NCBI GenBank assembly: GCA_026388655.1
Contig: JAPLJI010000004.1
Coordinates: forward strand, 1,543 to 65,542
Source of the DNA: Pseudomonadota bacterium
GTDB lineage: Bacteria > Desulfobacterota > JAPLJL01
Direction of reading: 5' to 3'
Length of the DNA stretch: 64,000 nt
Position numbers and translations under genes: made by a program. Each line of letters starts with the position of its first letter. The stretch's first letter is position 1. Below, one piece after another: positions 3,925 to 59,706 of the stretch. A model generated the notes under the pieces. That model saw only the letters and a list, made by a program, of their open reading frames with translations. It had not been told where the DNA came from and ran no database searches.

Positions 3925-3961
3925 TAAGATAAAATAAAGAACCCCGGTTAATCCCGGGGTT
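3925..3961 (-). terminator. Putative intrinsic terminator after ridA (hairpin aaccccgg-ttaatc-ccggggtt followed by a T-rich tract on the minus strand)
   Basis: Perfect 8-bp inverted repeat at 3940-3961 overlapping the ridA stop. On the minus strand it is followed by cttTATTTTATc. Confidence 0.4.
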
Positions 3962-4427
3962 CGACTTCCACGATCAGGTCCAGTTCCACCGCGGCCCCGC
4001 CGGGGAGCTCGGCCACCCCCACCGAAACCCGGGAGTGCCGCCCGGCCTCGCCAAACACTGCCAGCAGGATATTGCTGGCCCCGTCTGCCACCTGCGCCTG
4101 TTCTGTGAATCCCAGGGCCGAATTAACATAGCAGTTCAGGCGGATAATTTTCTTTACCGCGGCCAGGTTTTTGATCTCGCTTTTAATCGCCGCCAATCCG
4201 TTTAAAAGCGCCAGGCGGGCCGCCTCCTGTCCATCCTTGAGATTGAGTTCCTGCCCCAGTTTCCCGACCGAAACCAGCCTTCCTTCCAGCCGGGGAAGCA
4301 TCCCGCTGACAAAAACTAGATTCCCCACCCGCACCACGGGTAGATAGGCCCCCAGGGGGCGGGGAGGGTCAGGCAGTCTTAACCCCAGTTCGGTGATCCG
4401 GTCTTCAATTTGGAGATCTTTAATCAT
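3948..4427 (-). CDS. ridA: RidA/YjgF/TdcF-family reactive-intermediate (enamine/imine) deaminase
   Basis: 159-aa ORF with the C-terminal motif AAVELDLIVEV and overall YjgF-family similarity. Confidence 0.8.
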   Translation of the reverse strand: MIKDLQIEDRITELGLRLPDPPRPLGAYLPVVRVGNLVFVSGMLPRLEGRLVSVGKLGQELNLKDGQEAARLALLNGLAAIKSEIKNLAAVKKIIRLNCYVNSALGFTEQAQVADGASNILLAVFGEAGRHSRVSVGVAELPGGAAVELDLIVEVEPRD

Positions 4428-4469
4428 AAATCAAGGTCAGCTCTTTCCAGAACGTTTAGCATTTATTAT

Positions 4470-4560
4470 GTAGTTGCCCGATTTATTTATCCCGACATCG
4501 GGAGGGATCGGGCTCTGAAGGATTTTTTTCAGACCGAGCCTCATAAATGAGGCAACTACA
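4470..4560. repeat. REP-like palindromic elements in inverted pair (gtagttgcccgatttatttatcccgac ... gaggcaactac)
   Basis: GTAG-initiated palindromic units with a CCGATTnATCGG core. The same family recurs at 5044-5130, 5591-5638, 14004-14099, 25311-25409, 46340-46370 and 51927-51981. Confidence 0.7.
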
Positions 4561-4868
4561 AATTCATTATCCAGATCCGAAATCCCCGTCATTTCGCTAC
4601 GGGAATGACTGATGAGGAAACATTTAAGACCACATGCATTATTCATTATAATAGCAATCAGAATGGGATGGGAATCGGCCATGACCAAGACAATAATATT
4701 TTATTCTTTTTTTATTACCCCTTTATCTAAATCTTCTCCCCTGCGGGGAGAGGGAAGGGTGAGGGGGAAAAATCAAGAGGCAGGGTGCGGGCCTTCTGGT
4801 CTCTGGAAGGCGCCCTCCCGGGCCTCCCGGCCCGGGACTCCGGCCTTCGAGCAAAATCCAGAGGCTTA

Positions 4869-4984
4869 ACGAACGCAACGAAACCCGTTGTTGTTGTTCT
4901 GGTTCGTCGGGTTGTTGTTGTTCCGATTGGATGCGCGCAGGTTGTTGGTGTTGTTGTTCCAGCTCCCGCCGCGCAAGACCCGGT
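4869..4984 (-). other. DGR-type template repeat (TR): AAC-codon-rich 116-nt copy of the 3' end of the FGE-domain gene
   Basis: Minus-strand translation ...YNRVLRGGSWNNNTNNLRASNRNNNNPTNQNNNNGFRCVR* parallels the C-terminus of the 5683-6726 protein. It differs from 5686-5801 only at TR adenines, at about 17 sites. It has no upstream start codon and no ORF context. Confidence 0.8.
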
Positions 4985-5043
4985 TGTATCCGGGCCCGCC
5001 CCCTTTCAATCATGACCGTCATTCCTAGATTGACCGTTGTTTC

Positions 5044-5130
5044 GTAGTCCGCCGATTTATCGGCACCGTAGTCCGCCGATTTATTTATCCCGATTTCAGA
5101 GGGACCTGTCCCGTCCCTGGCGGGATCGGC
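5044..5130. repeat. REP cluster (gtagtccgccgatttatcggcaccgtagtccgccgatttatttatcccga...) flanking the 3' side of the RAYT gene
   Basis: Tandem GTAG-REP units of the same family as 4470-4560. Confidence 0.7.
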
Positions 5131-5545
5131 ATTCATTTTTATAAAAATCCTCAAACTCGATCTTCTCCACCAACGGGTTATTCTGAACATACTCCCGAAT
5201 CCGACGGAGGGCTTCTTCATTCCTGATCACATGCTCATAATAATTCGGCTGCCACAATTTCCTCCCCGCCTTCTTGCTCGTTTTTGCCTTGAATCTTCTC
5301 ACCACTTCACCCAATTTCAACCCGCATCCGGTTAAAACCAATATCAGGTGAAGGTGATCGGCCATTAAAACATGGAAATCCAGCCCGATACCCTTGATTG
5401 CCGGCAAATCCCGGATCTCTTCCTCAATCAATTTCAAATCATCCGCTGAAAATCCGGCGCGGTCATTGGAAGCTATGGTTACGAAGTAGTGGCCATCGGC
5501 TGAATAGTCGTAATTCTTCAGCCGAATATTTTTTAGGCCTTTCAT
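5096..5545 (-). CDS. REP-associated tyrosine transposase (RAYT; IS200/IS605-like Y1 HUH transposase)
   Basis: 149-aa ORF. The HUH motif HLHLIL and catalytic-Tyr region WQPNYYEHVIRNE align with E. coli RAYT (HMHCIW / WQPRFWEHAIRN). It is flanked on both sides by GTAG-type REPs. Confidence 0.85.
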   Translation of the reverse strand: MKGLKNIRLKNYDYSADGHYFVTIASNDRAGFSADDLKLIEEEIRDLPAIKGIGLDFHVLMADHLHLILVLTGCGLKLGEVVRRFKAKTSKKAGRKLWQPNYYEHVIRNEEALRRIREYVQNNPLVEKIEFEDFYKNECRSRQGRDRSL

Positions 5546-5590
5546 TTTTCGTTATTCAAAACCGCCGATCCCGCCCAGTGACGGGACACG

Positions 5591-5638
5591 TAAATCGGCG
5601 AACTACAAAAACAAATGCCCCATAAATGGGGCAACTAC
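5591..5638. repeat. REP units (taaatcggcgaactac ... ggggcaactac) flanking the 5' side of the RAYT gene
   Basis: Same REP family, lying between the RAYT gene and the VR/stop of the FGE-domain gene. Confidence 0.65.
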
Positions 5639-5682
5639 ATTTTCCCAAATTCCAAACTCCAAAATTCCAAAACTATTTAGAC

Positions 5683-6726
5683 CTAACGAACGCAACGAAA
5701 CCCGTAGCTGCCGTTCTGGTTCGTCGGGTTGTAGTAGCCCCGAAAGGATGCGCGCAGGTAGACGGTGACGTTGTCCCAGCACCCGCCGCGCAAGACCCGG
5801 TATGACCCCGAAGAAGGCCCCTGCGGATCCTGCGTCGGGCTGGTTGAGTAATACGCCGAATCATACCAGTCATTCACCCACTCCCAAACATTCCCGGCCA
5901 TGTCATAAAGGCCATATCCATTCGGGGCAAAGCTCCCCATCGCGATCGTATCATCCGGAGAACATGAATCATACTGCGACCCGTTATTCGCCCCCAAGGT
6001 ACAGGTGGGCGAATCATCCCCCCACGGATACCTCTTGCCCGCCAATCCTCCCCGCGCCGCATACTCCCACTCCGCCTCCGTCGGCAGTCTCCCTCCCGTC
6101 CATTGGCAAAATGCCTTCGACTGGCTCCAATCCACATAGATCACCGGGTAATTGTCGTAGATTGCATTTCCATAATATGAAGAGCGGGTATAGGAAGAAC
6201 TGCTTCCCGGGGCGGTGCAGGACCCCGCATCCACGCAGGCCTTGTATTGGGCGTTGGTCACTTCATAAACATTCATCTGGAAAGCCGAGATGCAGACATT
6301 ATGAACCGGTCGTTCTTCTGATCCGCCCTCATAGAAGGCATCGCCCATGTTGAAACAGCCGGCAGGGATGATGGAGGTCATTTGGCTCACGCCCTCAACG
6401 CACTGACCCGCCGAGCAGTAATATCCCGTTCCACACGCCGTCACCGTCCCCCACTCCCAACACGGATCCGCATCGGTATTTCCGCAGGTCTGATATCCGC
6501 TCCCCGAACACTGCTTCGCCCCATTGGTTGAACATTCATTGGTGCATCCATAACAAGTTTCCGTGTTATAGCCCGACCCATTCTGGTCGCAGGGGTTGTT
6601 GAAATCGTAGCCGCAAGCCAAAAATAGCATAGGGCAAAGGGCAAGGAGCAAGGCGGGAAAAACGAAAGAAAATAATGAACGACGAAAAGAAAGCAATGAG
6701 TGTAAAACAAAGGGAAATTTTTTCAT
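5683..6726 (-). CDS. Secreted formylglycine-generating-enzyme (FGE/sulfatase-modifying factor, C-type lectin fold) domain protein with a Cys-rich N-terminal domain; putative DGR target
   Basis: Start reassigned to ATG at 6726 (MKKFPF..., signal peptide, RBS AAGGGGAGGGGAG). It carries the FGE signature RLPTEAEWEYAARGG and GNVWEWV, and its C-terminal 39 codons form the variable repeat. Confidence 0.85.
   Translation of the reverse strand: MKKFPFVLHSLLSFRRSLFSFVFPALLLALCPMLFLACGYDFNNPCDQNGSGYNTETCYGCTNECSTNGAKQCSGSGYQTCGNTDADPCWEWGTVTACGTGYYCSAGQCVEGVSQMTSIIPAGCFNMGDAFYEGGSEERPVHNVCISAFQMNVYEVTNAQYKACVDAGSCTAPGSSSSYTRSSYYGNAIYDNYPVIYVDWSQSKAFCQWTGGRLPTEAEWEYAARGGLAGKRYPWGDDSPTCTLGANNGSQYDSCSPDDTIAMGSFAPNGYGLYDMAGNVWEWVNDWYDSAYYSTSPTQDPQGPSSGSYRVLRGGCWDNVTVYLRASFRGYYNPTNQNGSYGFRCVR
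5686..5801 (-). other. DGR-type variable repeat (VR) at the 3' end of the FGE-domain gene
   Basis: 116 nt matching 4869-4984 with mismatches only opposite TR adenines. TR AAC codons become TAC, GAC, GTC, TTC, GGC and AGC codons in the VR. Confidence 0.8.
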
Positions 6727-6829
6727 CGCCAAGCTCCCCTCCCCTTGAGATGATCCTCCGATTGCAACGGTCTCTTTAAATTCAGGTCGCTCATTTTCCA
6801 ATTCATCCATTAATTACCTACACAATTTT

Positions 6830-8719
6830 TTAAAACCGCCATTCCGCGCCCATCCCGCCGGGAAACGCGAACGCTTGAAAGGCGTAGGGGAGGGCCTCGT
6901 GCCCTCCCACCCCTGGGCGGGGATAAACCCCGCCCCTACCTTCTGATTGGTCCGTTCGGGGAGCGAACCCTACCCTCGAACCCTCGAACCCTGGGACCCT
7001 TGAACCCTTTATTTCTTTCGGCAACGAGGGACGGGAAAACAAGGCGATGACTGCGGTGATGACCCCCGCCCCGACTATTCCCAGGCCGATATAGGTGACA
7101 TTCCGGTTCGATTCGGTGTCGCTCCGGAAGCGGTCAAGGTCGGCCTGGACTGACGCGCCCTTATAACTGTCATGCGCCGAATCGGCCCGGACCTTGAATA
7201 AAACCGCCAGCGCCGTCCCCGCCGCCGCGATTCCGGCCCCGGAGATGGTAAAGACATTCGCGACCTTCCTCTTGGTTTTGAGCGTAGACAGGTATCCGGG
7301 CCTGAAACCCAAGGCGACGTTCAACTGCTTTTCCTCGCCCCGCCCGATCTCGATCTCGCTGGCCTGGGCTTGGTAATTCCCCCCGCCCCTGATCTCCATC
7401 TGGTGCTTTCCCCAGGCTACCTTTTCCTTCGTGACCGGGGTGTTCCCGAGTGACTTCCCATCCACCAGCACCGCCGCCCCCGAAGGCCGGGATTGAACGG
7501 TCAAATAACCGAAATTCGGCTTCAGCCGGGCCTCCAGCGTCTTCTCCTCCCCGACCTTAACCGCCGCTTCGTACTCCAGGGCTTCATAATCGGGGGCGGA
7601 GACCTTGACCCGGTATTTCCCCGGCGGGACCAGGTAATCGCACGGGGTTGAATTCGCCGGCAATCCGGCGATTTCAACCCTGGCCCCGGAGGGATCCGAA
7701 ATCACCCTGATTAACGCCCCTTTGACCAGATTGAGCGTGACCATTTCTTCCGTCCTAGAAATGCTGACATCCTTGCCCGTCCGCACATACCCTTTCTTCT
7801 CCGCCTCCACCCGGTGCGTCCCCATCGCCACCTCCGTGAGCGTGGCCGGCGAGGAACCCGCTTCCCGGCCGTCCAAGTAGATCCTGGCCTCCGGGGGTTC
7901 GGTGATCACCGTGAGCCGGGCCTTCATCTCCTCCATCGGCACGGTGACGTTGGTGAACTGGTCCCTGACGACCGTCACGTTGATCCGACCGTAATAATTC
8001 CCCTTCCTGGCTTCCACCTGGTAATCCCCCGCGGGAAGGTTTGCGAGGGTTAGGGGGGTATCGCCAACCCGTTGATCGTTCAGCGTGACCGCCGCCCCCG
8101 GGGGATCGGTCTTGAGGTAAAGGCCGCCCTTGGCCCCTTCACCCCTTTGGGAGGGGGTAAACCCCTCCCCTACACCCGGAGGAGAGGGAAAAACACCGCT
8201 TTTGGGAGTAAAGGTTACCGGGAGGCCCATCAGCTTCCCCGCCAAAACCCGGACCAGATCCAGGAGATCCTCCGGCTCGCACCGGCACTTCTCCGAGGCC
8301 GATGACTCGATCTTCCCCGTTTCCACGTTCACGAGCTGAATCATCCCGATGGAGGTCTCCCCGAGCCGGTTCATGCTTCCGGTGACGACCTTCCCTACCC
8401 CGAGGAGCTTCCCCATGTCCACCCGGCATTTTTCTTCCACGCAATCCTTTACCTGAAAACCCTGCTCCTCCAAAATCTTGTCCCGGTTGGCCCGGTCAAT
8501 CACCTCGTAGCGGCCGATCTTGACCAGCTCGTCAATCACGGCGTTGGTGAGAATCACCTTGAGGGACGGGTCCAGCCCCTTCGCCACGTCCAGGTCAATG
8601 ACCGCGATATAGTTCTGCACCCGCTCGATTTTCCCCTCCTCCGCCGCGGCCGGGGCCGGTAAACTTAAAGGAAACACTGTCAGGGTGAAAATCAAGAAAA
8701 GAAAAAACCTGGATCGCAT
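6830..8719 (-). CDS. Secreted PEGA-domain repeat protein with an N-terminal CsgG/LpoB-like domain and a C-terminal TM anchor
   Basis: Start reassigned to ATG 8719 (MRSRFFLFLIFTLTV signal peptide, GGGAGG RBS). Several PEGA-like repeats follow (P-x-GA-x-V/I-x-x-DG-x-x-x-G-x-TP). The 3' end of the ORF runs into low-complexity intergenic repeats, so the true stop may lie earlier. Confidence 0.6.
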   Translation of the reverse strand: MRSRFFLFLIFTLTVFPLSLPAPAAAEEGKIERVQNYIAVIDLDVAKGLDPSLKVILTNAVIDELVKIGRYEVIDRANRDKILEEQGFQVKDCVEEKCRVDMGKLLGVGKVVTGSMNRLGETSIGMIQLVNVETGKIESSASEKCRCEPEDLLDLVRVLAGKLMGLPVTFTPKSGVFPSPPGVGEGFTPSQRGEGAKGGLYLKTDPPGAAVTLNDQRVGDTPLTLANLPAGDYQVEARKGNYYGRINVTVVRDQFTNVTVPMEEMKARLTVITEPPEARIYLDGREAGSSPATLTEVAMGTHRVEAEKKGYVRTGKDVSISRTEEMVTLNLVKGALIRVISDPSGARVEIAGLPANSTPCDYLVPPGKYRVKVSAPDYEALEYEAAVKVGEEKTLEARLKPNFGYLTVQSRPSGAAVLVDGKSLGNTPVTKEKVAWGKHQMEIRGGGNYQAQASEIEIGRGEEKQLNVALGFRPGYLSTLKTKRKVANVFTISGAGIAAAGTALAVLFKVRADSAHDSYKGASVQADLDRFRSDTESNRNVTYIGLGIVGAGVITAVIALFSRPSLPKEIKGSRVPGFEGSRVGFAPRTDQSEGRGGVYPRPGVGGHEALPYAFQAFAFPGGMGAEWRF

Positions 8720-9053
8720 TTTGACCTCCCGGATAGGAATCATCGGTGAACATTTTATCATATGGTCCCTCAAAATGTTAAATGAACCTCTCCGCGGCAA
8801 GACCGCGGGGTATCTTTCTCAAAACGATTCTTAAGCTTTGGGTTGTCATTCCCGTCCCGCATCAGAGTGCGGAATGACGGGCATGGCAGACTGGATTCCC
8901 CCGGATCAAGTCCGGGGCAGGCTTTATCAAGCGCGGAAAAACAGAATAAGGTAACCCCGCCAACCGCAGGACGCCAAACCTTTTGCTTAAAAGTAGAACC
9001 GATTACGAAACTGTTATATATTAAGATGCACATTTAAAAATAAGGAGGTTGCC

Positions 9054-14003: not shown

Positions 14004-14099
14004 GGCCGATAAATCGGCAAACCACAAAACAATGTTTCGTTTTTCTTCGTAGTTGCCCGATTCATCGGGCGCATTTTAACCGGCCGACAAATCGGCCGG
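14004..14099. repeat. REP-family palindromes (ggccgataaatcggc; gtagttgcccgattcatcgggc; ccggccgacaaatcggccgg)
   Basis: Three units with the CCGAnnAATCGG palindromic core, one of them GTAG-initiated. Confidence 0.6.
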
Positions 14100-19679: not shown

Positions 19680-20597
19680 ATGAGCAAACTTCCCGAATTA
19701 CCGCATCGTCCCCACGATTTTTACCGGATCGAAAGCCGTTTTATCGAATTTAAGCCCGCGGCTGATTATCCCCGGCCGGTGAAAGTTCATTACAAGGTAG
19801 CCGGCGAGGGTAAGCCTCTTATCCTGGTTCACGGCCTGATGACCTCGGCCTACTCCTTCCGCTACGTGATCTCCCCTCTGGCCAAATCCTTCCGGGTCTA
19901 TGTCCCGGACCTGATCGGGGCGGGGTTAAGCGGAAAGCCGGCTGATTTCAATTACTCCATCCGGAGAATCGGAGAATTCATTTCCCGTTTTCTCCAGGAA
20001 CTGAAGCTGGAAAAACCCATCGTGATCGGGAATTCCCTGGGCGGCCTCTACGTTCTCAGCCTGGCCCTGGATCACCCCGAGCAGGTAAACCGCCTGGTGG
20101 TGATCCATTGCCCCGGATTCCCCATGTTCCGGCTGAAAGCCCTGGGTTTCCTGCTCAAAATCAGCCCCCTGGTTCGGGCTTACCGGGCCTTCACCCTGCG
20201 TTTCGCCCATCAATTCGTCCGGAATTCCATTTTTTACCAGGATAAAAACATGCTCTCCGAGGAAGAGGTCAAGGAATACGGCCGGCTCTTTTCCAGCCCC
20301 GAAGGCGCGGTCGCTTTCACACACATTCTAAAGGAAAGCCTCGATTCGAAAGCCAGCGCCGAGCTTATCTCCCGCCTGACCAAAATGAAAGAAGAAGGGA
20401 AAAAATTCCCCTTCCCCGTCCTTTTGATGTTCACGGATAAGGACCGCCTGGTCCCCGCCGAGTTCGGCGACCGTTTCCACGAGATCATCCCCGGCTCCCG
20501 GCTGGAAAAATTCTCCAACACCTCTCACTTCATCCACGTGGAAAGACCGGAAGAAACCGTCGAACTCATCCGTAAGTTTTCTGAAGTTACAGACTAA
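19680..20597 (+). CDS. Alpha/beta-hydrolase fold protein
   Basis: 305 aa with the nucleophile elbow GNSLGG and an HG oxyanion motif (LVHGL). Confidence 0.8.
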   Translation: MSKLPELPHRPHDFYRIESRFIEFKPAADYPRPVKVHYKVAGEGKPLILVHGLMTSAYSFRYVISPLAKSFRVYVPDLIGAGLSGKPADFNYSIRRIGEFISRFLQELKLEKPIVIGNSLGGLYVLSLALDHPEQVNRLVVIHCPGFPMFRLKALGFLLKISPLVRAYRAFTLRFAHQFVRNSIFYQDKNMLSEEEVKEYGRLFSSPEGAVAFTHILKESLDSKASAELISRLTKMKEEGKKFPFPVLLMFTDKDRLVPAEFGDRFHEIIPGSRLEKFSNTSHFIHVERPEETVELIRKFSEVTD

Positions 20598-20951
20598 GAT
20601 TTTTCATACATGTCCAAATTGGATGGAATTATCGGACGAAAACTAAATGATGAAACCTGATTTTGAAAATCACGGATATGACCCCCTCTCCTCTCCGAGC
20701 CGTAGGCTCCTACGAGCCGGAAGCCCCGCCCTCTCCCTCGAGGGGAGAGGGAAAGGGTGAGGGTGAATATTTTAATCTGGAAAGCTGTGAAGATATTTAA
20801 CTTTGAACTTTGAACTTTGAACCTTGAACTTTGAACCTTGAACCTCTTAACCTTGAACCGTGAACCGTGAACCCCATGTCCTCCGACCTGTCCTACGAAG
20901 CTTTAGCGTAGTTGGAAGCCTTGGCGAAGGAGGATTTAACCCTATTTCATA

Positions 20952-21783
20952 ATGAGAGCTTTTGTCACCGGAGGAAACGGATTTCTCGGCAGTCACCTGG
21001 TGGAAACCCTGGTGAAACGGGGATACGAGGTTACCTGCCTGGTTCGGAAGACCAGCAACCTTTGCTGGCTGGATAATTGTAAAGTCCAATACGTTTACGG
21101 CGACATGGGCCTGGGCGACCAGGGACTGGCGGAGGGCCTGCAGAACGCCGACATCGTTTTCAACCTGGCCGGGAAAACCATGGCCCTTTCCCGCGACGAA
21201 TATTTCCAGGTCAATTCCATCGCCCCGGATCGAAATGGAGAAACGCGTCCTGCGGTATAAAAGCCAAATCCCGATCGCCATCGTCCGGCCAGGCCCAATA
21301 TATGGGCCCCGGGATTACGCGTTTCTCGACGTGTTTAAAACCTTGAAAAACGGGATCCGGATCGATGTCTACGGAAAGCCCAAGATCCTCAACATGGCTT
21401 ATGTCCAGGATATCGTGGACGGCATCATCCTGGCGGGGGAAAAGGATTTTGCTTCCGGCGAGATTTTCCTTCTGGGAGACAGTAAAAATTATGACTGGGA
21501 CGAGATCATGACCATTCTGGGCCGGACGCTCGGGAAAAAGGGCCTCAAGATCGCGGTCCCGGTGCCCCTTCTTTACCTGGTCGCGGGGATCTCCGAACTC
21601 ATCGCCCAGATCCGGCGGAAACCCGTGATGCTAAACCTGCAAAAGGTCCCGGAGATGATCCAGCAGAACTGGGCTTTCAGCGTCGGCAAGGCCCGGAAAA
21701 TGCTCGGCTACGAGCCCCAGGTTGATCTGGCCCGGGGATTCCAGCTCACGCTGGAATGGTATAAACAAGCCAAATGGCTTTAG
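20952..21783 (+). pseudogene. NAD-dependent epimerase/dehydratase pseudogene (frameshift near 21235-21260 and loss of the catalytic YxxxK segment)
   Basis: ORFs 20952-21260 (Rossmann N-terminus MRAFVTGGNGFLGSHL) and 21235-21783 (C-terminal half) are in different frames. Compared with the intact paralogue at 22805-23827, about 55 residues including the S/YxxxK region are missing. Confidence 0.55.
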
Positions 21784-21959
21784 AATAAAGGGTTCAAGGG
21801 TCTTAGGGTCCAAGGGGTCAAGTAAAGATTTGAAAAACCCTTGTTGGCGTCATCCTGAGCTTAGCGAAGGATCTTCTTTTCTTGAATCCTTGATCCTTGA
21901 TCCTTGCACCCTCGAACCCTGGAACCCTGGAACCCTTGGACCCTAGGACCCTATCCAAA

Positions 21960-25310: not shown

Positions 25311-25409
25311 GTAGTTGCCCGATTTATTTATCCCGACTCCAGAGGGATTTATCAAGATATCGGAGGGATCGGGCTTTATGCAAAACCGCCGATGAATCGG
25401 CATACTACA
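25311..25409. repeat. REP-family cluster (gtagttgcccgatttatttatcccgac ... ccgccgatgaatcggcatactac)
   Basis: Near-identical to the REPs flanking the RAYT at 4470-4560. Confidence 0.7.
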
Positions 25410-34060: not shown

Positions 34061-34363
34061 AATTTAATCGAATTCCGCCATTTTGCCAACTTTGAACCCC
34101 ATTGAAAATTTACCATTTGTTTTTTTCAATAGGGTTCAAGGGTTCGAGGGTCCAAGGGAAAAATTTAAATTCAGCTCTGGATTCCTGCTTTGGCAGGAAT
34201 GACCTTATTTTTTTCATTCGTCAATCGTCATTCGTCAATCGTCAATCCTTTTTAACTCGAAACCCAAAACTCACAACTCGAAACTGTTATTACCCTTCGA
34301 CTCCTCGGCCCCTTGGACCCTAGAACCCTTGGACCCTGTTATAATTAATAGTTAGGGCTGGTC

Positions 34364-34741
34364 GGGCGGCCGCTCCGACGTCCGGGCAACCGGGCTCGGG
34401 GAGGAAAGTCCGGACTCCATAGGGCTGGGTGCCCGCTAACGACGGGTCAGGGTAACCCCAAATGGGGTAAACCTGAAGGAAAGTGCCACAGAAAACATAC
34501 CGCCCTGAGAGCAATCGAGGGGTAAGGGTGAAAAGGCGAGGTAAGAGCTCACCGCCCCGAAGGTAACTTCGGGGGCAGGGTAAACCCCACCCGGAGCAAG
34601 GCCAAATAAGGGAGCGTTTGAGGGTGGCCCGCCCGATGCTCCCGGGTAGGTTGCTTGAGGCCCCGGGTAACCGGGGTCCCAGAGAAATGGCCGCCGTTCC
34701 GCCTTAGGCGGGATACAGAATCCGGCTTATAGACCAGCCCC
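34364..34741 (+). ncRNA. rnpB: RNase P RNA, bacterial type A
   Basis: Contains GGAAAGTCCGGACTCCATAGGGC, the P4 region, AAGTGCCACAGAAAACATACCGCC, and a P1 pairing between gggcuggucg at the 5' end and agaccagccc at the 3' end. About 378 nt. Confidence 0.9.
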
Positions 34742-34874
34742 CTTTATTAATACTGAGCCCAGCGCTGAGAGCAAAGCGCATGGAGCACGGAGCATAGAGC
34801 AAAGAGCGGAGAATGAATTACCCCGCCCTCGGACCAGAAAACCCGCAAGCCGCGACTCAATCAATTCGAATTTT

Positions 34875-51779: not shown

Positions 51780-52095
51780 ACTAGTAAAGTTCAAATATCA
51801 AAGTTCAAATTTCAAATGAAGCTCAAAATCCAAATTTCAAATTGGAAAAATCAAGGAAAGTTATATTGAAATGGTAGAAAATATTTCTGTTCCCTCGAAC
51901 CCTATTTTAATAACAACCTATATTTTGTAGTTCGCCGATTAATCGGCGCTTTTAAAACCTGCCTGATGAATCGGGCAACTACAAGAAAAAATTAAATCGA
52001 TTGCGTTTCATGCTTTGCTCTGTGATTTCGCAGGCTGAAGCCTGCGGCTACAGCTCTCTGCCCTTTGCGCTTTGCCCTCTGCTTCAGCGGACCTT

Positions 52096-58849: not shown

Positions 58850-59706
58850 CTACTCGATCCCGACGATAACCCTGGCCAGCTTCTTCTTGGCCTCGAGATC
58901 TCCCTGCCGGAGAATCATCACCCGCTGGGCCTGGGGCGAGCCGGCGCCCTGCATCGCCTCGATCAGCGAGGTCGGCCCGGTCAGATTCTCGATCATCCTG
59001 CCGATTCTGATCCGGTTTTCCGTCGGAACGTCCGCGCGGGAGCGGAAATATTTTTCCACGTATCTGCCGACCTCCGGGGAATGCAGATCCTTCTCCGAGG
59101 GCAGGGTCGCCACAAAACCGCCGGCGATATCGTGGGAGAGGCGCGCGATCTCGTATAAAAATCTGGTCACATTCAACTTGGTGACATTGGCGTAAAGCGG
59201 GTTGACCACGAAAGCCCCGGCCTTGGTCCGGATTCCCAAGGTCGAGCGCGCAGCCTTCGAGCCGTCGGTGTCGTTCATCTGGCGTCCGAAAATCAGCTTG
59301 ATCCCCGGGGCGTCCAGTGGTAATCGGTCCCGTATTTCTGATCGATCTCGTAGGAAACCGAGTAAACCGCGTTTAACCCGTCGAATCCCACGCACCGCTG
59401 GAAACAGGCCGCGGTCTTCTGCCCGGCCAGCCTGAACATCTTCACCTTCTTGACCAGGTCCTCCCGGCTCTGGTGGATGTGCGTGAACCGGTTGATCCGC
59501 TCGCCGGAGAGATGCGAATCGGCGAGGAAAAGGTCCTGGTATTCCGGGATCAAGGCGAGCTCGTAGGTCATGGCCGCGCAGTTAAAATGCGGCTGGAACA
59601 GGGAATGCTCCGCGGGTTGGGAAATTTTCTGGCCCTGGGCGAAAACCTGCGGCCTTAATTTTCCCAGGCTTTCCCGGTAACCGTCGGCGGTCAGTATTTT
59701 CATCAT
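58850..59706 (-). pseudogene. abfD: 4-hydroxybutyryl-CoA dehydratase/vinylacetyl-CoA isomerase (AbfD, HpaB family) pseudogene with a roughly 200-codon internal deletion and a frameshift
   Basis: ORF 59293-59706 matches AbfD residues 1-135 (NCAAMTYELA, KTAACFQRCVGFD, YEIDQKYGT). ORF 58850-59395 matches the AbfD C-terminus (HGAGSPQAQRVMILRQG). The two ORFs overlap out of frame and the central catalytic region is absent. Confidence 0.7.

What the first reader, a model, noticed from the sequence alone, without database searches (positions are those of the whole stretch)
4430..5682. The DGR-like cassette lacks an RT and Avd within 64 kb; a RAYT/REP module sits between VR and TR
A canonical DGR is arranged target(VR)-avd-TR-RT within 1-3 kb. 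Here the order on the minus strand is target/VR, then REPs, then a RAYT gene (5096-5545), then REPs, then the TR, then about 430 bp of REP-rich non-coding DNA (4430-4868), then ridA. No ORF in the whole window carries reverse-transcriptase motifs, and none resembles a small helical Avd. Three explanations are possible. The RT may act in trans from elsewhere in the genome. A RAYT/REP invasion may have deleted or displaced the avd-RT half, leaving an orphan TR/VR. Or this may be an unusual architecture. The RAYT is co-oriented with the TR, so read-through transcription could supply TR RNA.
Basis: partly seen in the sequence, partly recalled or inferred. Interest (0 to 1): 0.75.

Follow-up and report, generated by a model that had tools for sequence, protein, structure and literature searches.

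The report
Decaying DGR cassette colonised by RAYT/REP
This is the leftover of a protein-diversifying retroelement (a DGR): the template repeat and its variable copy survive, but the helper gene avd was overwritten by a REP-associated transposase, no reverse transcriptase lies nearby, and the variable region no longer varies. It is a clear snapshot of DGR decay rather than a new mechanism.

Summary
The TR (4862-4985, minus strand) and VR (5679-5802) differ at 18 positions in 120 nt, all at TR adenines (P=3e-11). A Y1/HUH RAYT gene (5096-5545), bracketed by inverted GTAG-type REPs, lies between them. No RT or Avd is detectable anywhere in the 64 kb.

Relatives explain the arrangement. A related species (L025) and a related cassette (L029) have target–avd–TR–spacer. 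The window keeps only about 27 nt of the avd 3' end (4986-5012) next to the TR. Sister strains at about 98% identity have lost the TR by a clean 150-nt deletion and carry a different RAYT in the same slot. More distant relatives keep only the target gene.

The VR core is identical in five same-species loci, including the TR-less strains, and its amino-acid sequence is identical in eight protein versions. It has therefore not been rewritten since these strains split. RAYT-A orthologues elsewhere sit in unrelated contexts with the same REPs and no DGR parts, so the RAYT link is incidental.

Best reading: a recently inactivated DGR remnant colonised by REP/RAYT elements (0.65). An RT and Avd acting in trans is not excluded (about 0.2). 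One thing is unexplained: the TR 3' half plus spacer is about 97% identical between species whose synonymous sites are near saturation.

The parts
3948..4427 (-). ridA/YjgF-family gene; it marks the downstream boundary of the locus
   Evidence: PF14588 at E=2.7e-25 and PF01042. It is syntenic in L018, L019, L021 and L022.
4470..4560 (.). REP-A inverted pair (REPIN-like): GTAGTTGCCCGATTTAT ... ATAAATGAGGCAACTAC
   Evidence: (I5). It is absent at this position in sister strain L018, where the interval holds other sequence.
4599..4861 (-). Conserved non-coding block immediately 3' of the TR (spacer-like, 'Sp'). It contains a 9-bp GC hairpin with a GGGA loop at 4816-4837 and a second hairpin at about 4733-4752.
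   Evidence: 4599-4845 is 98.8% identical to L018, which has no TR. The TR 3' half plus the first ~150 nt of this block are about 97% identical to L025 (5 differences, counted by eye on the alignment), while dS of the flanking genes is 0.46-1.1. It is homologous to the sequence after the TR of L029 and after the VR of L024. There is no Rfam match.
4862..4985 (-). Template repeat (TR)
   Evidence: 123-nt direct repeat with 5679-5801. All 18 mismatches in the 120-nt core are at TR adenines, P=3e-11, and there are 15 in-frame AAC codons. It is missing from sister strains through a clean deletion of window 4847-4996.
4986..5012 (-). Remnant of the 3' end of avd (TGATTGAAAGGGGGCGGGCCCGGATAC)
   Evidence: It aligns with the last codons of avd in L029 and L025 (GAAAGGGTGCGGGCCG / GAAAGGGGGCGGGCCC). 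The first 13 nt are also kept in L018, next to its TR deletion.
5044..5130 (+). Two REP-A copies flanking the 3' end of RAYT-A. The second overlaps the last codons of the ORF.
   Evidence: (D3, I1, I2, I4).
5096..5545 (-). RAYT-A, a REP-associated Y1/HUH tyrosine transposase of 149 aa (HUH motif in DHLHLIL, Tyr motif in NYYEHVIR)
   Evidence: PF01797 at 27.7 bits against a cutoff of 23. NF047646 at 66.7 bits, below its cutoff of 80. It is 100% identical to an NCBI MAG protein. Orthologues at 68-78% identity are flanked by the same REP-A family in other genomes.
5563..5640 (-). Two REP-A copies flanking the 5' end of RAYT-A, inverted relative to 5044-5130. The 5616-5633 hairpin is terminator-like after the target gene.
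   Evidence: (D2, I1-I4).
5679..5802 (-). Variable repeat (VR), encoding the C-terminal ~40 residues of the target
   Evidence: There are no variable columns in the VR core among the five same-species loci, while the rest of the gene carries the nucleotide polymorphism. The amino-acid sequence is identical in eight protein versions.
5683..6810 (-). DGR target gene: predicted lipoprotein with a Cys-rich region and an FGE-sulfatase (C-type-lectin-fold) domain. The likely true start is near 6726 (MKKFPF...LFLAC).
   Evidence: PF03781 at E=3e-61. Homologues are listed. The pairing with the upstream PEGA gene is conserved in L025, L027 and L028.
6880..6939 (.). REP-B pair (GTAGGGGAGGG... / ...GGGGATAAACCCCGCCCCTAC), the REP family that flanks RAYT-B in sister strains
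6830..8800 (-). PEGA-domain protein with a CsgG/LpoB-like N-terminus; conserved upstream partner of the target gene
   Evidence: PF08308 at E=1.3e-52; synteny.

Best explanation
The locus is the remnant of a chromosomal diversity-generating retroelement whose ancestral order was PEGA – target(VR) – avd – TR – spacer.

In the past, TR-spacer RNA was reverse-transcribed with adenine-specific errors, and the cDNA replaced the VR. This explains the clean pair with adenine-only mismatches.

In this lineage avd was then truncated to about 27 nt, and the gap was filled by a RAYT gene with its cognate REPs. No RT or Avd gene is present in cis. The VR has not been rewritten since this strain split from its sister strains. 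Those sisters have gone one step further: they deleted the TR and carry a different RAYT/REP family in the same slot.

The RAYT/REP module is an opportunistic occupant of a recombination-prone intergenic region, not a working part of the DGR.

Shown directly: the anatomy, the absence of RT and Avd, the avd remnant, the TR deletion in the sisters, VR invariance, and the unrelated contexts of RAYT-A orthologues. Inferred: the order of events, and that the cassette is now silent.
For: 1. The TR/VR pair is genuine: 18 of 18 mismatches fall on TR adenines (P=3e-11), with 15 in-frame AAC codons.
2. No RT or Avd is found in 64 kb by motif, phmmer/tblastn, profile HMM or Pfam.
3. Relatives show the ancestral layout. 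L029 has target – intact avd (NF033474, 106 bits) – TR, with 23 of 23 mismatches on adenine, – homologous spacer. L025 is syntenic (PEGA – target) and has avd–TR–spacer.
4. The window keeps the avd 3' end at 4986-5012.
5. Sister strains (about 98% identical; L018, L019, L021, L022) lack exactly window 4847-4996 (the TR). They keep the first 13 nt of the avd remnant and the spacer, and they carry RAYT-B, which is 32% identical to RAYT-A, with REP-B.
6. The VR core has no variable column among five same-species loci, and its protein sequence is identical in eight versions, whereas the rest of the gene is polymorphic. An active DGR should re-randomise 18 sites.
7. Other decay states occur in the clade. 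L025 has an avd with an in-frame stop, also seen in a second independent contig (P0129), and a chimeric TR with many non-adenine mismatches. L024 has its VR fused directly to the spacer. L027 and L028 keep the target only.
8. RAYT-A orthologues (68-72% identical) lie among glycosyltransferase, radical-SAM or methylmalonyl-CoA mutase genes. They are flanked by the same REP-A and have no TR, spacer, avd or RT.
9. Incomplete, transposon-shaped DGR loci are already documented (PMC10907252).
Against: - The rest of the genome could not be searched, so an RT and Avd elsewhere are not excluded.
- The TR has no non-adenine mismatch to the VR (0 in about 82 non-A sites). The last homing was therefore recent, and decay of the TR itself is not yet visible.
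- The TR 3' half plus about 150 nt of spacer are about 97% identical to L025, although synonymous divergence of neighbouring genes is 0.46-1.1. That suggests ongoing constraint, or conversion from a functional master copy.
- Assemblies are consensus sequences and would hide low-frequency VR variants.
- Only two independent strains carry the window-type allele (the window, which is P0121, and P0124), so VR constancy among TR-bearing strains rests on few genomes.
Confidence: 0.65

Rival explanations
1. Satellite TR served in trans. The TR-spacer RNA made here is used by an RT and an Avd encoded at a second DGR locus elsewhere in the genome, so the cassette is still able to diversify the target.
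For: - avd, TR and brt work when supplied in trans, and remote or incomplete loci diversified in trans are described (PMC5758913; PMC10907252).
- The TR/VR pair is clean.
- The TR 3' half plus spacer is far more conserved than neutral sites: about 97% against pS of 0.34-0.58.
- No relative shows an RT directly after the spacer, which fits a family of RT-less cassettes.
- A related cassette with an intact avd and a homologous spacer (L029) occurs in what looks, from adjacent accession numbers (ERZ272476xx-481xx), like the same ENA series as the sister strains. Its contig breaks inside the spacer, as expected for a repeated sequence.
Against: - The VR is invariant across all same-species assemblies, and identical in strains with and without the TR.
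- Sister strains lost the TR without any change to the VR or target gene.
- The 19-nt TR 3' end gave no window-type hit in the JGI metagenome scan. Two sister-strain contigs (L019, L023) come from JGI metagenomes, but it is not verified that those samples are in the scanned set.
- Avd would also have to come from elsewhere.
- No RT was found on any of the contigs recovered from this clade.
Confidence: 0.2
2. The RAYT is functionally tied to the cassette. It could supply the TR transcript by read-through, act as the ssDNA nuclease for cDNA integration, or mobilise a REP-flanked TR-spacer module between loci.
For: - RAYT-A is co-oriented with the TR, with no predicted terminator between them.
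- The window-type TR-spacer lies within 0.5 kb of RAYT-A and REP-A in two species, in different orders.
- The roughly 190-nt TR-3'/spacer block is much more conserved than its flanks, and in the window it is bracketed by REP-A copies.
Against: - RAYT-A orthologues elsewhere have no DGR parts nearby.
- Sister strains carry an unrelated RAYT-B in the same slot and have no TR.
- The intact-looking relative L029 has avd, not a RAYT, between VR and TR.
- RAYT-A itself is only 75% identical between the two species, so it did not travel with the conserved block.
- The literature library holds no paper that mentions both DGRs and REP-associated tyrosine transposases.
Confidence: 0.04
3. Artefact. Either the TR/RAYT segment is a mis-join in the MAG contig, or the RT lies in the roughly 2.2 kb of the source contig outside the window.
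For: - TR and VR repeats commonly break or mis-join metagenome assemblies; the L029 and P0127 contigs end at the TR or spacer.
- The segment 4846-5692 is seen only in this contig.
Against: - Both junctions are coherent. The avd remnant and spacer are shared with sister strains.
- The VR 3' flank allele also occurs in P0124, L027 and L028.
- RAYT-A is bracketed by its own cognate REPs.
- An RT in the missing 2.2 kb would still lie either at least about 4.9 kb or about 58 kb from the locus, so it would not restore a canonical cassette.
Confidence: 0.03

Closest known systems
Canonical DGR of Bordetella phage BPP-1 (mtd/VR – avd – TR – spacer – brt)
   Same: There is a C-terminal VR in a C-type-lectin-fold target. 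The TR lies downstream with adenine-only mismatches and AAC codons. A remnant of avd abuts the TR 5' end, and a structured spacer lies 3' of the TR.
   Different: There is no RT and no functional avd. A RAYT gene and REPs occupy the avd position. The GC hairpin with a GRNA loop, which Guo et al. (PMC3240598) find after the VR, here lies 29 nt after the TR. The locus is chromosomal and not phage-borne. The VR shows no variation.
Incomplete, transposon-shaped DGR loci of Thiohalocapsa sp. PB-PSB1 (Doré et al. 2024, PMC10907252)
   Same: These are DGR loci lacking RT and/or TR, reshaped by mobile elements and MITE-like repeats. Some are non-diversifying, and for others trans-action was proposed.
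   Different: Here the invaders are REP/RAYT elements rather than IS transposons. A graded decay series is visible across strains and species at one syntenic locus. No partner RT is known.
Remote (non-adjacent) DGR targets, e.g. Treponema and lineage-4 DGRs (Wu et al. 2018, PMC5758913)
   Same: A VR-bearing target lies far from any RT.
   Different: In those cases the TR stays beside the RT and only VRs are remote. Here the TR itself sits with the VR and no RT does.
RAYT/REP (REPIN) systems, e.g. E. coli TnpA-REP/RayT and the Pseudomonas REPIN-RAYT pairs (from my own knowledge of Nunvar 2010, Bertels and Rainey 2011, Ton-Hoang 2012)
   Same: A Y1 HUH transposase is flanked by inverted REPs that start with GTAG. 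The same REPs are dispersed as inverted pairs in intergenic regions.
   Different: It is located inside a DGR cassette. A second RAYT family (RAYT-B with REP-B) replaces it allelically in strains about 98% identical.

Membership tests
Diversity-generating retroelement (DGR) | TR/VR direct-repeat pair whose differences are confined to TR adenines | tested here: met
   All 18 mismatches in 120 nt fall on TR adenines, P=3e-11.
Diversity-generating retroelement (DGR) | DGR-clade reverse transcriptase encoded in the cassette | tested here: not met
   No RT in 64 kb by motif scan, phmmer/tblastn, a two-sequence RT profile, and Pfam on the ORFs scanned. The rest of the genome could not be tested.
Diversity-generating retroelement (DGR) | Accessory gene avd next to the TR (present in about 74% of DGRs; Wu 2018) | tested here: not met
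   Only a roughly 27-nt 3' remnant remains at 4986-5012. The Avd profile has no hit in the window. Relatives L029 and L025 do have avd.
Diversity-generating retroelement (DGR) | VR at the C-terminus of a C-type-lectin/FGE-sulfatase-fold target protein | tested here: met
   PF03781 at E=3e-61, with the match running to the last residue.
Diversity-generating retroelement (DGR) | GC-rich hairpin with a GRNA loop 4-34 bp downstream of the VR (Guo 2011) | tested here: not met
   After the VR the first hairpin is a REP (loop TTTA) about 45 nt away. A hairpin that fits the rule (9-bp GC stem, GGGA loop) lies 29 nt after the TR, at 4816-4837.
Diversity-generating retroelement (DGR) | Evidence of ongoing diversification (VR polymorphism at adenine-templated sites) | tested here: not met
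   There are no variable columns in the VR core among five same-species loci, and the protein sequence is identical in eight versions. Read-level data are not available.
RAYT / REP system | Y1 HUH tyrosine-transposase fold of the REP-associated subfamily | tested here: inconclusive
   PF01797 is above its cutoff (27.7 against 23). NF047646 REP_Tyr_transpos scores 66.7 bits, below its curated cutoff of 80, while RAYT-B of the sister strain scores 101. JGI names several homologues RayT.
RAYT / REP system | Gene flanked by REPs in inverted orientation that begin with GTAG | tested here: met
   Inverted arms at 5068-5092 / 5582-5606 and 5040-5059 / 5591-5610 (I2 and I4). The GTAG starts are listed.
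RAYT / REP system | The same REPs dispersed in intergenic regions of the genome | tested here: met
   There are 12 copies in the window against 0.22 expected, including pairs at 14009-14065, 25311-25408 and 51927-51982.
RAYT / REP system | Orthologous RAYTs associated with the same REP family in other genomes | tested here: met
   L030-L033 carry GTAGTCTGCCGATTTATCGGCGG arrays on both sides of the gene.
RAYT / REP system | Single-copy, vertically inherited gene | not testable with these tools
   Only one copy occurs in the window, and the whole genome is not available. The allelic replacement by RAYT-B in sister strains argues against simple vertical stability at this slot.

The most novel reading that the evidence does not exclude
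The window-type TR-spacer is a working 'satellite' template. This clade would carry several RT-less target–(avd)–TR–spacer cassettes that are all served in trans by one master RT (and Avd) elsewhere, possibly on a mobile element shared between species. That would explain three things: no cassette in the clade has an RT after its spacer; contigs break inside the spacer; and the TR 3' half plus spacer is about 97% identical between species whose synonymous sites are near saturation. Because surveys anchor on the RT, they would never see such cassettes.
Probability: 0.2. Interest if true: 0.65.

Novelty: new member of a known kind. Interest (0 to 1): 0.4.

Why it matters
DGR catalogues are built by finding the RT first, so TR/VR pairs without an RT, and the way DGRs die, are almost undocumented. 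This syntenic locus offers a stepwise series:

- intact avd–TR;
- avd with a stop codon and a chimeric TR;
- avd overwritten by a RAYT;
- TR deleted;
- VR fused to the spacer;
- bare target gene.

The series shows that a diversified VR can be frozen and kept as an ordinary gene. It also shows that REP/RAYT elements, including two different families swapping in one slot at about 98% genome identity, quickly occupy the vacated space. For annotation it is a warning: an adenine-only TR/VR pair is not evidence of current hypermutation. If the trans reading were correct instead, RT-less satellite templates would enlarge the known reach of DGRs.

Tried and rejected
**Searches that found nothing useful**
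- Exact scans for the TR 3' end (GGGTTTCGTTGCGTTCGTT) in genome contigs and metagenome contigs gave only chance or unrelated hits. One of them, L005, is a complete Cytophagia DGR (VR–RT–avd–TR) whose TR is 78% similar. That fits the shared AAC/CLec scaffold rather than close kinship.
- Three viral-contig scans for spacer or TR-end strings returned nothing.
- Exact-protein look-ups of the window's target, RAYT and ridA failed. GAPDH succeeded and gave the sister loci.
- Rfam found nothing at the locus, only RNase P at 34354-34745.
- blastn of the TR-spacer against plasmids gave only short GC-rich chance hits.
- The nearest annotated Avds are 35-42% identical, from cyanobacterial and Prosthecochloris plasmids. 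The Prosthecochloris cassette is FGE–HRDC–avd–RT.

**Ideas considered and dropped**
- ORF 4437-4688 (minus) as an RT N-terminal remnant: it matches no family.
- ORF 4723-5220 (minus), which spans the TR: it is an out-of-frame run with no family match.
- The window's VR end (..GFRCVR*) as a product of conversion by the TR: rejected, because TR-less L027 and L028 carry the same allele and flank.
- L027 and L028 as remote targets still being diversified: rejected, because their VRs are no more variable than the rest of the genes at about 91% identity.
- Covariation support for a spacer RNA structure: there are too few distinct sequences. The MFE z-score is only -1.6.
Full report
**1. What is in the sequence**

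Reading the minus strand from 8800 down to 3948, the locus runs as follows:
- a PEGA-domain gene (6830-8800);
- a REP-B pair (6880-6939);
- the target gene (5683-6810; FGE-sulfatase domain, E=3e-61, reaching the last residue; lipoprotein-like N-terminus);
- two REP-A copies (5563-5640);
- a 149-aa Y1/HUH transposase (5096-5545);
- two more REP-A copies in the opposite orientation (5044-5130);
- a 27-nt stretch (4986-5012);
- the TR (4862-4985);
- a spacer-like non-coding block (4599-4861);
- a REP-A inverted pair (4470-4560);
- ridA (3948-4427).

TR and VR form a 123-nt direct repeat 817 nt apart. In the 120-nt core the TR has 38 adenines, and all 18 TR/VR mismatches fall on them (hypergeometric P=3e-11). 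In the target's reading frame the TR has 15 AAC codons. This is the signature of DGR mutagenic retrohoming, and it is far beyond chance.

**2. RT and Avd are absent from the window**
- A motif scan on six frames found no YxDD preceded by a motif-4-like sequence.
- phmmer --max and tblastn with BPP-1 Brt and Avd found nothing better than E=0.6.
- A two-sequence RT profile (Brt plus the RT of the Cytophagia DGR in L005) and a five-sequence Avd profile, run with --max on every stop-to-stop fragment of 25 aa or more, hit only the positive controls.
- Pfam on ORFs of 130 aa or more, for the locus itself and for 20.8-64 kb, gave ordinary housekeeping families, no RVT_1 and no bAvd. ORFs at 1-3.9 kb and 9-20.6 kb were not scanned directly. 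The syntenic genes of L018 carry precomputed Pfam hits without RVT_1 or bAvd.

The window appears to come from a 66,225-nt contig of an NCBI MAG labelled 'Proteobacteria bacterium' (P0121 = MCX5865893.1 and P0131, both 100% identical). At most 2.2 kb is therefore unseen.

**3. The RAYT/REP module is real and self-contained**

The protein passes PF01797. Its best NCBIfam match is the REP-associated tyrosine transposase model, although at 66.7 bits it is below the cutoff of 80. It carries HUH (DHLHLIL) and Tyr (NYYEHVIR) motifs.

It is bracketed by inverted REPs that start with GTAG (I1-I4). The same REP motif occurs 12 times in the window, as six pairs, against 0.22 expected. Orthologues at 68-72% identity from other metagenomes are flanked by the same REP family (GTAGTCTGCCGATTTATCGGCGG). 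They lie among glycosyltransferase, radical-SAM or methylmalonyl-CoA-mutase genes, with no TR, spacer, avd or RT nearby. The RAYT therefore has no conserved association with DGR parts.

**4. Sister strains**

An exact look-up of the window's GAPDH returned six contigs from ENA and JGI metagenomes that are about 98-99% identical and colinear with the window. Four of them cover the locus. In these four:
- Window 4847-4996, the TR with about 15 nt on its 3' side and about 11 nt on its 5' side, is cleanly missing. The sequence reads ...TGATTGAAAGGGG|CCGGAGTCCCGGG..., and the spacer beyond is 98.8% identical.
- The slot between the VR and that junction holds a different RAYT. RAYT-B is 153 aa, scores 101 bits on NF047646, and is 32% identical to RAYT-A. 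It has a different REP family, REP-B.
- The last codons of the target differ (..GFRCCQDK* instead of ..GFRCVR*).
- Otherwise the VR is identical to the window's at every adenine-templated site.

Across five loci the VR core has no variable column, while the nucleotide polymorphism lies in the rest of the gene. Across eight protein versions of the 90% cluster the VR residues are identical.

An active DGR would have re-randomised up to 18 sites. Instead the VR predates the split of strains with and without a TR and has not changed since.

**5. Relatives that show the ancestral state**
- **L025** (Logan). This is the syntenic orthologue in a related species; PEGA is 86% and the target 79% identical at nucleotide level. 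Its order is target – avd – TR – spacer – REP-A pair – RAYT-A. Its avd matches bAvd but has an in-frame TGA after codon 75, and a second independent contig gives the same 75-aa product (P0129).
- **L029** (ENA). A related cassette has a short FGE target, an intact avd (NF033474, 106 bits), a TR with 23 of 23 mismatches on adenine, and a homologous spacer. The contig ends 125 nt after the TR.
- **The window.** The 27 nt at 4986-5012 align with the last codons of these avd genes. Avd therefore once abutted this TR, and all but its 3' end has been replaced by RAYT-A and REPs. L018 retains the first 13 nt of the same remnant, so the avd truncation probably predates the split and the TR deletion came later.

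**6. Other decay states in the clade**
- The L025 TR is a chimera. Its 5' half is L029-type and its 3' half is window-type. It has many non-adenine mismatches to its own VR, which fits an L029-type TR better.
- In L024 a lone target in a CODH/ACS context has its VR fused directly to spacer-like sequence, as expected from VR×TR recombination. There is no TR or RT in 10 kb.
- In L027 and L028 the PEGA–target pair has neither avd, TR nor RT within ±10 kb. REP-B copies lie downstream, and the VR is no more variable than the rest at about 91% identity.
- No contig from the clade shows an RT.

**7. Mechanism and its rivals**

The best-supported account is historical. TR-spacer RNA was reverse-transcribed by an RT–Avd complex and copied into the VR. 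Loss of avd, and loss or absence of RT in cis, then ended this. The VR was frozen, and REP/RAYT elements colonised the intergenic space. I give this 0.65.

The main rival, an RT and Avd acting in trans (0.2), has some support:
- DGR components work in trans, and incomplete loci diversified in trans are known.
- The TR shows no non-adenine decay.
- The TR 3' half plus about 150 nt of spacer differ from L025 at only about 5 positions, although dS of PEGA and the target is 0.46 and 1.1.

I cannot explain that last conservation. It could reflect constraint on a functional DGR RNA, or conversion or transfer from a master copy.

Against the rival stand the invariant VR, the harmless loss of the TR in the sisters, and the absence of any window-type TR in the JGI scan. 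For the last point, inclusion of the relevant samples in the scanned set is unverified.

A functional role for the RAYT (0.04) is contradicted by sections 3 and 4. An assembly artefact (0.03) is unlikely because both junctions are shared with independent assemblies.

**8. An oddity**

The strongest hairpin of the locus (4816-4837) has a 9-bp GC stem and a GGGA loop on the minus strand. It matches the rule that Guo et al. derived for the element required downstream of a VR: a 7-10 bp GC stem, a GRNA loop, and a distance of 4-34 bp. Here, however, it lies 29 nt after the TR. After the VR there are only REP hairpins.

Because L029 has homologous sequence after its TR, I treat this as the native TR flank of this family. 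Its role is unknown.

**9. Comparison with known systems and verdict**

The locus meets the DGR criteria for the TR/VR signature and the target fold. It fails those for RT, Avd, the VR-side hairpin and ongoing variation. It is a DGR remnant, not a complete DGR.

Incomplete, transposon-reshaped DGR loci have been described in Thiohalocapsa (PMC10907252). Remote targets and trans-complementation are established (PMC5758913). RAYT/REP systems are well known. No paper in the library mentions both DGRs and REP-associated tyrosine transposases.

The finding is therefore a new member of a known kind. Its value lies in the unusually complete decay series and the allelic RAYT swap. Interest is 0.4.

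Noticed in passing
window 4846-5692 versus L018 3054-3949: Strains about 98% identical carry two different RAYT genes (32% identical) with two different REP families in the same intergenic slot, together with different alleles of the last target codons (..GFRCVR* and ..GFRCCQDK*). Both alleles also occur in more distant relatives, which suggests cassette exchange by recombination.
   Followed up: partly
window 4736-4925 versus L025 4262-4453: The TR 3' half plus the first ~150 nt of spacer differ at only about 5 positions between two species whose neighbouring genes have dS of 0.46-1.1. The TR 5' half and the sequence beyond the spacer are much more divergent. The cause (selection, gene conversion or transfer) is unresolved.
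   Followed up: partly
window 4816-4837: A 9-bp GC hairpin with a GGGA loop lies 29 nt 3' of the TR. It fits the published rule for the hairpin required downstream of a VR, but it sits on the donor side.
   Followed up: partly
L025 4206-4322: The TR of the related species is a chimera of an L029-type 5' half and a window-type 3' half. Its avd has an in-frame TGA that is reproduced in a second contig (P0129). A mis-join in the Logan contig cannot be fully excluded.
   Followed up: partly
L024 2190-2400: A lone FGE target in a CODH/ACS (Wood-Ljungdahl) context has its VR followed directly by spacer-like sequence, as if VR and TR had recombined and deleted avd.
   Followed up: partly
window 14009-14065, 25311-25408, 51927-51982: Three further REP-A inverted pairs (REPIN-like) lie in intergenic regions. 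The first is conserved in sister strain L018.
   Followed up: partly
window 34354-34745 (+): Bacterial RNase P RNA class A, 311.7 bits.
   Followed up: no
window 58850-59706 (-): A 4-hydroxyphenylacetate 3-hydroxylase (HpaB)-like gene is split into two overlapping ORFs: HpaB_N at 59293-59706 and HpaB C-terminal at 58850-59395. This is probably a frameshift or a pseudogene.
   Followed up: no
window 20586-21940 versus L018 18890-20296: This is the only other poorly conserved stretch between the window and its sister strain (unaligned or 83-96% identical). L018 has a 327-aa epimerase/3Beta_HSD gene here, whereas the window has two ORFs without Pfam matches (20847-21281, 21235-21783).
   Followed up: no
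L005 5286-8000: The Cytophagia MAG DGR (VR – ORF – RT – avd – TR) also has short palindromic REP-like repeats (TGCAATGCATAAAGGCATTGCACTCC) scattered through its intergenic spaces.
   Followed up: no
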